Made by a program: the position numbers and the translations under genes
Sequence record: PP047754
Length of the DNA: 64,000 nt
Direction: 5' to 3' (one strand)
Source: Escherichia phage KEP4
The notes under the pieces: model-generated
Databases searched by the model: none
What the model saw: the letters and a program-made list of their open reading frames with translations, nothing else
What the model was told of the DNA's origin: nothing
In this document: positions 56,183 to 56,667 of the stretch, piece by piece
Numbering within the stretch: position 1 is the first letter of the stretch
How the letters are laid out: the number at the start of each line of letters is the position of its first letter

Positions 56183-56210
56183 AACAAAGGGGCATTAAGC
56201 CCCTTTGTTT
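56182..56210. terminator. bidirectional terminator hairpin between convergent genes
   Basis: Perfect 12-bp stem AAACAAAGGGGC..GCCCCTTTGTTT. Confidence 0.55.
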
Positions 56211-56667
56211 ATTTCCCATCCCAAAAGTCGTCTTCATCGTCTACTTCATCAAACGCAGAATCCAATTCTTCGTCAGAGTACTCTGGAAGACGACCATTCT
56301 GTTTCAGATATTCAATTTCGTCATCTTCCAATTGAAGATCCGTGGCTATAAACAGCGCCCCTGTTTCTTCATCGTGCTCAATACTGTAAGATGTATATTC
56401 AGCACCCTGGACTGTAATGATGATAGACGTCGGGTCTTCTGGGTCCACATGGGCTTCAAACGGGATACCGTCAATCGGGGCGTCCTCTAAAAATGTAGCA
56501 AGAGCTACGGCGGCGCGGACGACGTCTGTCCCTTGCACGGAAGCATAAATCTCTTCAGCGCCTGTTTCCCCGCGCTCAAAGAATTCAATCGTAGTCCCGT
56601 CTTGAACACCAGTCCAGATAGGCATGTCTGCTGGGGAATCCGCTTCAAATAATTTCGAAATTGGCAT
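56209..56667 (-). CDS. highly acidic protein (152 aa)
   Basis: Very D/E-rich, especially C-terminus EELDSAFDEVDDEDDFWDGK. Confidence 0.5.
   Translation of the reverse strand: MPISKLFEADSPADMPIWTGVQDGTTIEFFERGETGAEEIYASVQGTDVVRAAVALATFLEDAPIDGIPFEAHVDPEDPTSIIITVQGAEYTSYSIEHDEETGALFIATDLQLEDDEIEYLKQNGRLPEYSDEELDSAFDEVDDEDDFWDGK

What the first reader, a model, noticed from the sequence alone, without database searches (positions are those of the whole stretch)
56209..56667. Extremely acidic small proteins: DNA-mimic (anti-restriction) candidates
The 152-aa protein is dominated by D/E (C-terminus EELDSAFDEVDDEDDFWDGK), and the protein at 54502-55059 has a similar acidic tail. Phage DNA mimics such as Ocr and Arn have this composition and inhibit restriction or other DNA-binding defence proteins.
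Basis: inference. Interest (0 to 1): 0.4.

Follow-up and report, generated by a model that had tools for sequence, protein, structure and literature searches.

The report
Very acidic late virion protein
The 152-residue, extremely acidic protein is real and conserved, but it is made late and carried inside the phage particle, so if it blocks host defences it does so as a pre-packaged passenger, not as an early T7-Ocr-like DNA mimic.

Summary
The window is a Kuttervirus (Ackermannviridae) genome, 100% identical to Salmonella phage kage. The ORF at 56209-56667 lies on the minus strand. It encodes 152 aa with 41 D/E, 6 K/R, net charge -35 and pI 4.05, more than 4 SD from the other ORFs of the window. 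The charge (-30 to -40) is conserved across the family. The family has no known function (phrog_3852) and occurs only in enterobacterial Ackermannviridae, in every genome that matched.

It is not Ocr-like. Every orthologue sits behind the family's late-promoter motif (CTAAATA...). Orthologues were found by mass spectrometry in purified virions of LIMEstone1 (ORF174), Sajous1 (gp115, 31 spectra) and ViI. No sequence or fold similarity to any solved DNA mimic was found.

The AlphaFold model shows a small beta-rich core and a disordered polyacidic tail with an invariant DD[F/L]W motif. The upstream gene is a mini ADP-ribosyltransferase whose N-terminus (MKTFLEFYRE) resembles the T4 capsid-targeting sequence. 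That gene is lost in several lineages that keep the acidic gene.

Best reading: a packaged, probably ejected, polyanionic accessory protein. A decoy or anti-defence role is inferred, not shown.

The second protein (54502-55059) is unrelated. It has an early-type promoter and is absent from the virion list, and its acidity sits in a variable disordered linker.

The parts
56209..56667 (-). Gene A: 152-aa, 16.9-kDa protein, net charge -35, pI 4.05. It equals kage_199, CBA120 orf230, ViI Vi01_184, Sajous1 gp115 and LIMEstone1 ORF174, and belongs to phrog_3852.
56638..56667 (-). Codons 1-10, MPISKLFEAD (family consensus MPTSKLFESE). S4, L6, F7 and E8 are invariant among the 28 aligned sequences. 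Candidate targeting or cleavage motif: L-F-E fits the (L/I)xE site of T4-type prohead proteases. Not proven.
   Evidence: specificity weakened
56293..56619 (-). Residues 17-125: predicted compact core in the order beta-beta-beta-alpha-beta-beta-beta-beta-alpha.
   Evidence: mean pLDDT 77, pTM 0.73; no significant fold match
56212..56286 (-). Residues 128-152: polyacidic tail (14 of 25 residues D/E). Residues 131-152 are modelled as disordered (pLDDT below 50).
56221..56232 (-). DDFW (residues 146-149): short motif conserved in all relatives as DD[F/L]W. It is the only such C-terminal motif in the scanned ORFs.
56696..56706 (-). CTAAATAGTCC: late-promoter-like motif about 30 nt upstream of the ATG of gene A, overlapping the stop codon of the upstream gene. 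Orthologues carry CTAAATA[C/A/T]CCC here.
56675..56679 (-). GAGGA Shine-Dalgarno sequence of gene A.
   Evidence: read directly
56186..56206 (.). Bidirectional terminator-like hairpin that ends gene A and the convergent + strand gene.
56703..57152 (-). Upstream neighbour: 149-aa stand-alone ADP-ribosyltransferase (Pfam ART-PolyVal). Its N-terminus MKTFLEFYRE matches the T4 capsid-targeting sequence MKTYQEFIAE at 6 of 10 positions. It is a virion protein in LIMEstone1 (ORF173), Sajous1 (gp116) and ViI (Vi01_183).
57155..57185 (-). Exact CTAAATACCCC late-promoter motif (57175-57185) plus an 11-bp hairpin just before the ADP-ribosyltransferase start codon.
57192..58385 (-). Context: PLP-dependent enzyme, homologue of ViI gp226. 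ViI gp226 was one of five gene products sufficient to reconstitute the 5-NeOmdU thymidine hypermodification.
54502..55059 (+). Protein B: 185 aa, net -22, phrog_4823. It has an N-terminal beta domain, a helical region, a variable acidic linker (about residues 117-155, nt 54850-54966) and a strongly conserved C-terminal helix motif GGEDDNTP.LE.IMAGG.AAWE.QNEKNAWLD.
54433..54458 (+). TTCAAT-N14-TCTAAT: one mismatch from the ViI-like TTCAAT[N14]TATAAT motif (sigma-70-like, taken here as early-type), upstream of protein B.

Best explanation
Gene A encodes a late-expressed protein that is built into the Kuttervirus particle. The protein is a polyanion (net -35). It has a small folded beta-rich core and a disordered polyacidic tail carrying an invariant DD[F/L]W peptide motif.

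I think it is most likely an internal, DNA-co-packaged 'ejection' protein of the same logical kind as the T4 internal proteins and Alt. On this reading it is loaded into the head late in infection together with the neighbouring capsid-targeting-sequence-tagged ADP-ribosyltransferase. It is then released into the next host with the hypermodified DNA. There it acts before any phage gene is expressed, by occupying a host DNA-binding protein (a defence nuclease or nucleoid protein) with its acidic tail and surface, with DDFW as the anchoring contact.

Shown or directly supported: the gene and its extreme, conserved charge; the late-promoter motif; presence in purified virions; universality among the enterobacterial Ackermannviridae genomes that matched; independence from the ADP-ribosyltransferase gene; absence of similarity to known families.

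Inferred: location inside the head; N-terminal processing; ejection; the decoy or inhibitor activity and its target.
For: Charge: net -35, an outlier of about 4.4 sd in the window. The family keeps -30 to -40 at about 40% identity.

Late expression: CTAAATA occurs only 6 times in the 64-kb window, and two of these sit directly upstream of the ADP-ribosyltransferase and of gene A. In Sajous1, 19 CTAAATA sites were found in 140 kb. Most lie 9-42 nt upstream of start codons, mainly of baseplate, neck, sheath, head, scaffold and tail-spike genes. Every gene A orthologue examined, in five genera, carries the motif.

Virion presence: LIMEstone1 ORF174 (16.62 kDa, 12.5% coverage) equals the orthologue and its 19-aa tryptic peptide exactly. 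Sajous1 gp115 is 99% identical and gave 31 spectra from CsCl-purified virions. ViI Vi01_184 is annotated 'phage associated protein', and the LIMEstone paper says all its unknown structural proteins have structural counterparts in ViI.

Head-packaging context: the adjacent ADP-ribosyltransferase begins MKTFLEFYRE, against the T4 capsid-targeting sequence MKTYQEFIAE. That decapeptide is conserved across genera while the following residues diverge. The phage has a T4-type prohead protease, core and scaffold. T4 Alt and IPI* are precedents for packaged effectors and an injected anti-restriction protein.

Gene A's own N-terminus keeps invariant S4, L6, F7, E8. The family consensus shares M1, T3, F7 and E10 with the capsid-targeting sequence.

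The tail is disordered with a unique conserved DDFW motif, typical of a protein-binding peptide.
Against: There is no direct evidence of location inside the head, of N-terminal cleavage or of ejection. The Sajous1 peptide table as stored is truncated and holds none of the peptides.

Gene A lacks the aromatic residue at position 4 that matters for T4 targeting. In this window it has I3 and D10, so only M1 and F7 match. The LFE motif also occurs at the N-terminus of rIIA, an ordinary non-structural protein.

The gene was found in every enterobacterial Ackermannviridae genome that matched and is fairly well conserved (about 76% identity between Kuttervirus and Limestonevirus). T4 internal proteins and typical anti-defence genes are variable accessory genes.

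T4 internal proteins are basic, not acidic. There is no fold or sequence similarity to any DNA mimic. No host target is known.
Confidence: 0.35

Rival explanations
1. Gene A is a purely structural or assembly component of the virion with no role in the host. Examples: part of the prohead core or scaffold that stays in the head; an acidic escort (histone-chaperone-like) for very basic head proteins; a counter-charge for packaged DNA that carries cationic aminoethoxy groups.
For: It is a core gene found in every enterobacterial Ackermannviridae genome that matched. It has a late promoter like the structural genes and is found in virions. The same genome has a very basic prohead core protein (gp154, net +23 in 104 aa) and an acidic scaffold whose N-terminus also carries LFE. 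The gene lies in the cluster that includes the PLP enzyme of the DNA-hypermodification pathway.
Against: It is encoded far from the head and tail gene modules. It has a disordered tail with a short conserved peptide motif rather than an oligomerising structural fold. It is absent from the Vibrio and Aeromonas relatives checked, which carry a PLP-enzyme homologue but no gene A. There is no similarity to any solved virion protein.
Confidence: 0.35
2. Gene A is a dedicated partner of the neighbouring ADP-ribosyltransferase: an inhibitor or immunity protein, a folding chaperone, or a packaging adaptor. This would be analogous to the small acidic class I chaperones of type III secretion.
For: The genes are adjacent, share a strand, and both products are in virions. 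The best, though non-significant, Foldseek PDB hits are the type III secretion chaperones ExsC and SchA (E 0.1-0.8, TM 0.30-0.36). Size and acidity fit.
Against: Gene A is kept where the ADP-ribosyltransferase is absent (phiEa2809, Serratia phage Kevin, some Taipeivirus) or reduced to a remnant (L025, L028). It matched 277 phage records against 226 for the ADP-ribosyltransferase. Gene A has its own promoter motif. The fold hits are not significant.
Confidence: 0.1
3. Literal first-reader model: gene A is an Ocr/Arn-type DNA mimic made from the incoming genome to block type I restriction-modification or McrBC.
For: Composition (27% D/E, net -35, small size) is in the range I recall for Ocr and ArdA (the comparison with Ocr and ArdA is from my own knowledge).
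Against: It has a late-promoter motif and no early-type TTCAAT-N14-TATAAT motif upstream. The protein is in virions. There is no sequence or fold similarity to solved mimics. The model is a beta-rich core plus a disordered tail rather than a rigid DNA-shaped body.
Confidence: 0.05
4. Protein B (54502-55059) is an early non-virion protein whose acidity is only a flexible linker. Its function resides in the conserved N-terminal beta domain and C-terminal helix. It is not a DNA mimic.
For: An early-type promoter motif lies upstream. It is not in the Sajous1 virion list. The acidic block has insertions and deletions and is missing in P0056 and P0060, while the C-terminal motif is nearly invariant. 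The linker has pLDDT below 50.
Against: An early, acidic, conserved protein of unknown function could still be a host-takeover or anti-defence factor. Nothing tested here excludes that (all returned nothing informative).
Confidence: 0.6

Closest known systems
T4 internal head proteins (IPI*, IPII, IPIII) and Alt
   Same: They are made late, packaged in the virion, encoded outside the head-gene cluster and delivered with the DNA. IPI* is an injected inhibitor of a modification-dependent restriction enzyme. Here the neighbouring ADP-ribosyltransferase carries a T4-like capsid-targeting decapeptide, and the phage has a T4-type prohead protease and scaffold.
   Different: T4 internal proteins are basic and vary between phages. 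Gene A is extremely acidic and is a conserved core gene. Its N-terminus only partly resembles the capsid-targeting sequence. Cleavage and ejection are untested. There is no sequence homology.
DNA-mimic anti-restriction proteins (T7 Ocr, ArdA, T4 Arn)
   Same: Small size, very high D/E content and a large net negative charge.
   Different: Those are early or leading-region genes and are not virion components. No sequence match (PDB phmmer and hmmsearch) and no fold match (Foldseek PDB) was found. Gene A is a beta-rich core plus a disordered tail.
Acidic C-terminal tails with an aromatic tip (E. coli SSB ...DDDIPF; T7 gp2.5 tail) - recalled from my own knowledge
   Same: A disordered polyacidic tail ends in conserved aromatic residues. 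In those proteins such tails dock into basic pockets of partner proteins and compete with ssDNA.
   Different: In gene A the DD[F/L]W motif is followed by 0-10 further residues, so a free terminal carboxylate is not part of it. There is no OB fold. This is a resemblance only and was not tested.
Type III secretion class I chaperones (ExsC, SchA)
   Same: About 130-150 aa, acidic, alpha/beta fold; these were the top Foldseek PDB hits. They escort proteins that must travel through a narrow conduit.
   Different: The hits are not significant (E at least 0.1, TM 0.30-0.36). Gene A has extra strands and lacks the N-terminal helix. Such chaperones stay in the producing cell, whereas gene A protein is in the particle.
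Phage P1 Dar system (DarA, DarB, Hdf, Ddr, Ulx)
   Same: Anti-restriction proteins that are packaged in the head during assembly and released on infection.
   Different: These are large multi-protein sets with enzymatic domains. There is no homology to gene A.

Membership tests
DNA-mimic anti-restriction proteins (Ocr / ArdA / Arn type) | Small protein with very high negative charge | tested here: met
   41 D/E, 6 K/R, net -35, pI 4.05. It is an outlier of about 4.4 sd, and the charge is conserved in the family.
DNA-mimic anti-restriction proteins (Ocr / ArdA / Arn type) | Sequence or fold relationship to a solved DNA mimic | tested here: not met
   phmmer and a family profile against all PDB sequences, with E up to 10, gave no mimic. 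Foldseek against PDB gave no hit with E <= 0.001 and no mimic among the top 50.
DNA-mimic anti-restriction proteins (Ocr / ArdA / Arn type) | Available at the moment the DNA enters (an early gene) | tested here: not met
   It has a late-promoter motif and no early-type motif upstream. It could be available only by pre-packaging, which is a different route.
DNA-mimic anti-restriction proteins (Ocr / ArdA / Arn type) | Rigid surface array of carboxylates matching B-DNA phosphates | not testable with these tools
The most acidic part (residues 131-152) is predicted to be disordered.
DNA-mimic anti-restriction proteins (Ocr / ArdA / Arn type) | Binds or inhibits type I restriction-modification, BREX or McrBC | not testable with these tools
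   This needs an experiment.
T4-type internal / ejection head proteins | Present in purified virions | tested here: met
   From the literature, matched here to the gene: LIMEstone1 ORF174, Sajous1 gp115 with 31 spectra, ViI Vi01_184.
T4-type internal / ejection head proteins | Late transcription | tested here: met
   At motif level only: CTAAATA... lies upstream of every orthologue and of the structural genes. No transcript data.
T4-type internal / ejection head proteins | N-terminal capsid-targeting sequence like MKTYQEFIAE | tested here: inconclusive
   The family consensus MPTSKLFESE shares M1, T3, F7 and E10. The window sequence MPISKLFEAD shares M1 and F7, with D10. The aromatic residue at position 4 is missing. 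The neighbouring ADP-ribosyltransferase meets it at 6 of 10 positions.
T4-type internal / ejection head proteins | Cleavage by the prohead protease after Glu in (L/I)xE | tested here: inconclusive
   L6-F7-E8 is invariant in the 28-sequence alignment. The same motif is at the N-terminus of rIIA. The peptide table is truncated.
T4-type internal / ejection head proteins | T4-type prohead protease and scaffolding core in the genome | tested here: met
   In the near-identical Sajous1 genome: gp154 core, gp155 protease, gp156 scaffold and a T4 gp23-like capsid protein. These lie outside this window.
T4-type internal / ejection head proteins | Ejected into the host with the DNA | not testable with these tools
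   This needs an experiment.
Type III secretion class I chaperone fold | Significant structural similarity | tested here: inconclusive
phrog_3852 (unknown function) | Full-length profile match | tested here: met
   E 8.7e-89 over residues 1-152.
ART-PolyVal, PF18760 (the neighbour, not the target) | Pfam score above the gathering threshold | tested here: met
   41.9 bits against a cut-off of 31.2, E 2.2e-10.

The most novel reading that the evidence does not exclude
Gene A is a virion-delivered nucleic-acid mimic. It would be a polyanionic decoy pre-loaded in the head and co-injected with 5-NeOmdU-modified DNA, neutralising a host DNA-binding defence (for example a modification-dependent nuclease, a type I enzyme or BREX) before any phage gene is expressed. 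The DDFW tail would be the docking peptide. This would join two known ideas, DNA mimicry and packaged anti-restriction proteins, in one protein that is conserved across all enterobacterial Ackermannviridae.
Probability: 0.2. Interest if true: 0.7.

Novelty: new member of a known kind. Interest (0 to 1): 0.38.

Why it matters
Ackermannviridae (ViI, CBA120, LIMEstone and relatives) are widely used biocontrol and therapy phages with unusually broad host ranges. How their DNA survives entry is only partly explained by thymidine hypermodification. A conserved polyanionic protein carried in the particle next to a packaged ADP-ribosyltransferase is a concrete, testable candidate for a 'first-minute' host-takeover or anti-defence factor. 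The T4-like targeting decapeptide on the ADP-ribosyltransferase suggests the T4 capsid-targeting system also operates in this family, which could be useful for engineering cargo delivery. If the protein is only structural, the result still corrects a tempting composition-based mis-annotation as a DNA mimic.

Tried and rejected
- Pfam, NCBIfam and PADLOC gave nothing for gene A or protein B. PHROGs gave only unknown-function families.
- PDB sequence searches with single sequences and family profiles gave nothing meaningful.
- Foldseek of both models against PDB, and of the gene A model against BFVD, gave only the protein's own family or non-significant hits.
- A full HMM search of 1.84 billion representatives with the family profile gave only 7 clusters. 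Those checked are from Ackermannviridae. An IMG/VR scan added only the same genera.
- I looked for semi-tryptic peptides proving N-terminal cleavage in the Sajous1 MS supplement. The stored file is truncated and contains neither gene A, the ADP-ribosyltransferase nor capsid peptides.
- The ViI proteome paper is not held.
- The idea that N-terminal 'LFE' is a specific packaging signal was rejected as specific. It also occurs in rIIA and in an internal Met of a baseplate gene, although also in the scaffold.
- The idea that gene A is an obligate partner of the ADP-ribosyltransferase was weakened by lineages that lost that gene but kept gene A.
- The T4 late promoter TATAAATA is not enriched in the window. 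The family's own CTAAATA motif is the relevant one.
- I looked for an analogue of gene A downstream of the PLP-enzyme homologue in Vibrio and Aeromonas relatives and found none.
- Homology between gene A and protein B: none.
- Literature searches for a Kuttervirus DNA mimic, anti-defence protein or virion cryo-EM structure found nothing on this protein.

Full report
**Where the window comes from.** A 5-kb stretch around the finding is 100% identical to Salmonella phage kage (MT074476). It is at least 98% identical to many Kuttervirus genomes of the Ackermannviridae, including SFP10 and CBA120 relatives. In kage the target is kage_199, 'putative structural protein'. That label was copied by homology from an 'unknown structural protein' of Dickeya phage LIMEstone.

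**The observation.** The ORF is at 56209-56667 on the minus strand. It has an ATG start and a GAGGA ribosome-binding site 7 nt upstream. It encodes 152 aa ending ...EELDSAFDEVDDEDDFWDGK. It has 41 D/E, 6 K/R, net charge -35 and pI 4.05. Among 96 crude genes of the window, charge per residue averages -0.007 with sd 0.051. This protein is at -0.230, the clear extreme. Family members keep -30 to -40 even at about 40% identity, so the acidity is selected for and is not drift.

**The second protein.** The protein at 54502-55059 (+ strand, 185 aa, net -22, pI 4.27) is acidic too. Its acidic stretch is internal (about residues 117-155), not a tail.

**Family and distribution.**
- No Pfam, NCBIfam or PADLOC family matches. 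The only match is phrog_3852, 'unknown function'.
- A word-indexed search of 5.8 billion proteins gave 27 close relatives.
- A full HMM search of 1.84 billion cluster representatives with the family profile gave only 7 clusters.
- tblastn against 50,697 phage records found the protein in 277 records. All named genera belong to enterobacterial Ackermannviridae: Salmonella 160, Klebsiella 44, Escherichia 28, Dickeya 19, Serratia 10, Shigella 6, Erwinia 4, Enterobacter 3. These are the same counts per host as for the PLP enzyme next door.
- The Vibrio and Aeromonas relatives checked have a PLP-enzyme homologue but no gene A.
- Invariant features in the 28-sequence alignment are an N-terminal S-x-L-F-E, several core positions, and a C-terminal DD[F/L]W. 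The DD[F/L]W motif persists in the most distant members, and the N-terminal motif is only slightly altered in one of them.

**Structure.** AlphaFold2 with the 28-sequence alignment gave mean pLDDT 77 and pTM 0.73. The model has a compact core (residues 17-125) in the order beta-beta-beta-alpha-beta-beta-beta-beta-alpha, then a short helix. Residues 131-152, the most acidic part, have pLDDT below 50.
- Foldseek against PDB gave no hit with E <= 0.001. The top hits were the type III secretion chaperones ExsC and SchA, at E 0.1-0.8 and TM 0.30-0.36.
- BFVD returned only the protein's own family.
- PDB sequence searches, which include Ocr, ArdA and Arn, returned nothing relevant.

- In 140 kb of the near-identical phage Sajous1 I found 19 CTAAATA sites. 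Most lie 9-42 nt upstream of start codons. The genes include the baseplate cap, wedge, tail fibre and tail spikes, VrlC, neck, sheath, the first head gene, the scaffold, the ADP-ribosyltransferase and gene A. The motif therefore behaves as the family's late promoter, the counterpart of T4 TATAAATA.
- In the 64-kb window CTAAATA occurs only six times. One (exact CTAAATACCCC, 57175-57185) precedes the ADP-ribosyltransferase. Another (CTAAATAGTCC, 56696-56706) lies about 30 nt before the ATG of gene A.
- Every orthologue examined, in Kuttervirus, Taipeivirus, Agtrevirus/Limestonevirus, Miltonvirus and Nezavisimistyvirus, has the motif directly upstream, whether or not the ADP-ribosyltransferase is present.
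- A bidirectional terminator-like hairpin (56186-56206) ends the gene.

**Virion association.**
- The LIMEstone1 virion proteome lists ORF174 at 16.62 kDa, 12.50% coverage, 1 peptide, and ORF173 at 17.33 kDa, 11.84%. The LIMEstone1 orthologue of gene A computes to 16.62 kDa, and its 19-aa tryptic peptide is exactly 12.5% of 152 aa. The ADP-ribosyltransferase orthologue computes to 17.33 kDa with an 18-aa peptide, which is 11.84%.
- Sajous1 gp115 is 99% identical to gene A and syntenic. It gave 31 spectra from CsCl-purified virions, although only about three tryptic peptides are of detectable size. The ADP-ribosyltransferase (gp116) gave 10 spectra.
- ViI annotates both as 'phage associated protein'. 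The LIMEstone paper states that all its unknown structural proteins have structural counterparts in ViI.
- Gene A is therefore a late, particle-borne protein. That is not how Ocr or Arn work.

**The neighbour and the T4 analogy.** The upstream gene (56703-57152) is a stand-alone ART-PolyVal ADP-ribosyltransferase (41.9 bits against a cut-off of 31.2).
- Its N-terminus MKTFLEFYRE matches the T4 capsid-targeting sequence MKTYQEFIAE at 6 of 10 positions. Position 4 is aromatic and F7 and E10 are identical. In T4, positions 4 and 7 matter for targeting and positions 8 and 10 for processing.
- A relaxed pattern built from the T4 sequence matches three ORF starts in the window, where 0.004 are expected.
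- The decapeptide is conserved across genera as MKTFL[EDQ][FY]x[RQK]E, while the following residues diverge.
- The phage has a T4-type protease, core, scaffold and capsid protein.
- T4 Alt, also an ADP-ribosyltransferase, is packaged, processed at ITE-6 and injected. T4 IPI* is an injected restriction inhibitor.
- This makes head packaging of the neighbour likely and gives a precedent for gene A.
- Gene A's own N-terminus is only partly similar to the targeting sequence. The family consensus MPTSKLFESE shares M1, T3, F7 and E10. The window's MPISKLFEAD shares less. Its L-F-E fits the (L/I)xE rule, but the same tripeptide opens rIIA, so this point stays inconclusive.

**Is gene A tied to the ADP-ribosyltransferase?** No. 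That gene is absent from phiEa2809, Serratia phage Kevin and some Taipeivirus. It is reduced to a 23-codon remnant in two IMG/VR genomes. All of these keep gene A with its own promoter motif. The phage-record counts are 277 for gene A and 226 for the ADP-ribosyltransferase.

**Interpretation.**
- What is solid: a real, conserved, late, virion-borne polyanion with a folded core and a disordered acidic tail bearing a unique DDFW motif.
- What I infer as most likely (about 0.35): it is an internal, co-packaged protein released with the DNA. It would act as a decoy or inhibitor for a host DNA-binding protein through its tail.
- About equally likely (0.35): it serves the particle itself, as a core- or scaffold-associated protein, an escort for very basic head proteins such as gp154 (+23 in 104 aa), or a charge-balancing component. 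Its status as a core gene with good conservation argues in that direction.
- A dedicated partnership with the ADP-ribosyltransferase (0.1) and the literal early Ocr-type model (0.05) are disfavoured.

**Protein B.** It is unrelated to gene A (hhalign probability 1%).
- It has an early-type TTCAAT-N14-TCTAAT motif upstream and a GC-rich hairpin after its stop codon (read directly).
- It is not in the Sajous1 virion list.
- Its family (42 hits) conserves an N-terminal beta domain, a helical segment and a nearly invariant C-terminal motif. The acidic block has insertions and deletions and is missing in two homologues. The block is modelled with pLDDT below 50.
- No fold or sequence match was found.
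- Its acidity is best read as a flexible linker. Its function is unknown.

**Novelty.** The protein's presence in virions is already in the literature, as an unnamed 'unknown structural protein'. One paper's supplement lists only low-confidence structural matches for it. No paper in the held library assigns it a function. It is a new, uncharacterised member of the broad class of phage virion accessory proteins. The interesting reading, a packaged nucleic-acid mimic, is possible but unproven.

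Noticed in passing
window 56703-57152 (-): A 149-aa stand-alone ART-PolyVal ADP-ribosyltransferase begins MKTFLEFYRE, 6 of 10 identical to the T4 capsid-targeting sequence MKTYQEFIAE. 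The decapeptide is conserved across Ackermannviridae genera and the protein is found in virions. It looks like a miniature Alt-type packaged effector, which suggests a T4-like targeting system operates in this family.
   Followed up: partly
window 61382-61579 (-) and 34658-34879 (-): Two more small ORFs (65 aa, MKTFGEFLTE...; 73 aa, MKSFQDFLED...) start with capsid-targeting-like decapeptides. Three such starts occur in the window where 0.004 are expected. The 65-aa ORF also has a CTAAATA motif upstream. It is not known whether they are packaged.
   Followed up: partly
window 57155-57185 (-); Sajous1 L006 (record positions 83726, 87414, 89624, 72123): The exact CTAAATACCCC motif is followed by its own inverted repeat (ATACCCCA...TGGGGTAT). 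This forms an 11-bp hairpin (-18 kcal/mol, z -4.7) just before the start codon and takes the place of a normal Shine-Dalgarno sequence. The same promoter-plus-hairpin unit precedes the tail-fibre and tail-spike genes. It may be a 5' stabiliser or translational control element for a subset of late genes.
   Followed up: partly
L025 and L028 (IMG/VR Ackermannviridae), about 3870-4000: The ADP-ribosyltransferase gene is reduced to a short remnant by internal deletion (in L025 a 23-codon ORF, MKTFLEYFREIVLYKPGLAVREA). Both promoter motifs and the acidic gene are kept. Other lineages (some Taipeivirus, phiEa2809, Serratia phage Kevin) lack the gene entirely.
   Followed up: yes
L005 (ViI NC_015296) 4001-4456: The reference ViI protein Vi01_184 differs from all relatives only in residues 41-62 (MHRYRARMCPRCRSPCNVLRRR). 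This looks like a pair of compensating frameshifts, most likely sequencing errors in the reference genome.
   Followed up: no
window 59228-59746 (-) and 59756-59989 (-): This myovirus has a protein with an Sf6-type tail needle knob domain (PF16532, E 6e-29). Its Sajous1 counterpart (gp119) was detected in virions, as was the counterpart (gp120) of the adjacent 77-aa protein. They lie in the same minus-strand cluster as the PLP enzyme.
   Followed up: no
window 58455-59156 (-): A 233-aa protein (MRNV...) has a weak, below-threshold match to the NDUFS4 family. It is conserved in this cluster in all genera. In phiEa2809 and Serratia phage Kevin it is the gene directly upstream of the acidic gene.
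   Followed up: partly
phage collection records OR844942 ('Enterococcus phage Efm 3-10') and MN871475 ('Pseudomonas phage Pa-sanjiao'): Both records carry the Kuttervirus acidic protein (100% identical over the aligned 135 residues), and OR844942 also carries a 100% identical ADP-ribosyltransferase. The host labels look wrong, or the records are contaminated.
   Followed up: no
Sajous1 L008 10608-10922 and 11645-12484 (outside the window): The small prohead core protein is extremely basic (net +23 in 104 aa). The scaffold is acidic (net -20), with an N-terminal ...NLFEG and a C-terminal KDDDDKDE run. This gives strong charge complementarity among head-interior proteins, which the acidic virion protein could join.
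   Followed up: no
window 54433-54458, 50478-50503, 14537-14562 and six other sites: The TTCAAT-N14-TATAAT motif (up to 1 mismatch) occurs 9 times where 0.7 are expected. The sites I inspected lie just upstream of gene starts. This is consistent with the early/middle promoter class published for ViI-like phages.
   Followed up: partly
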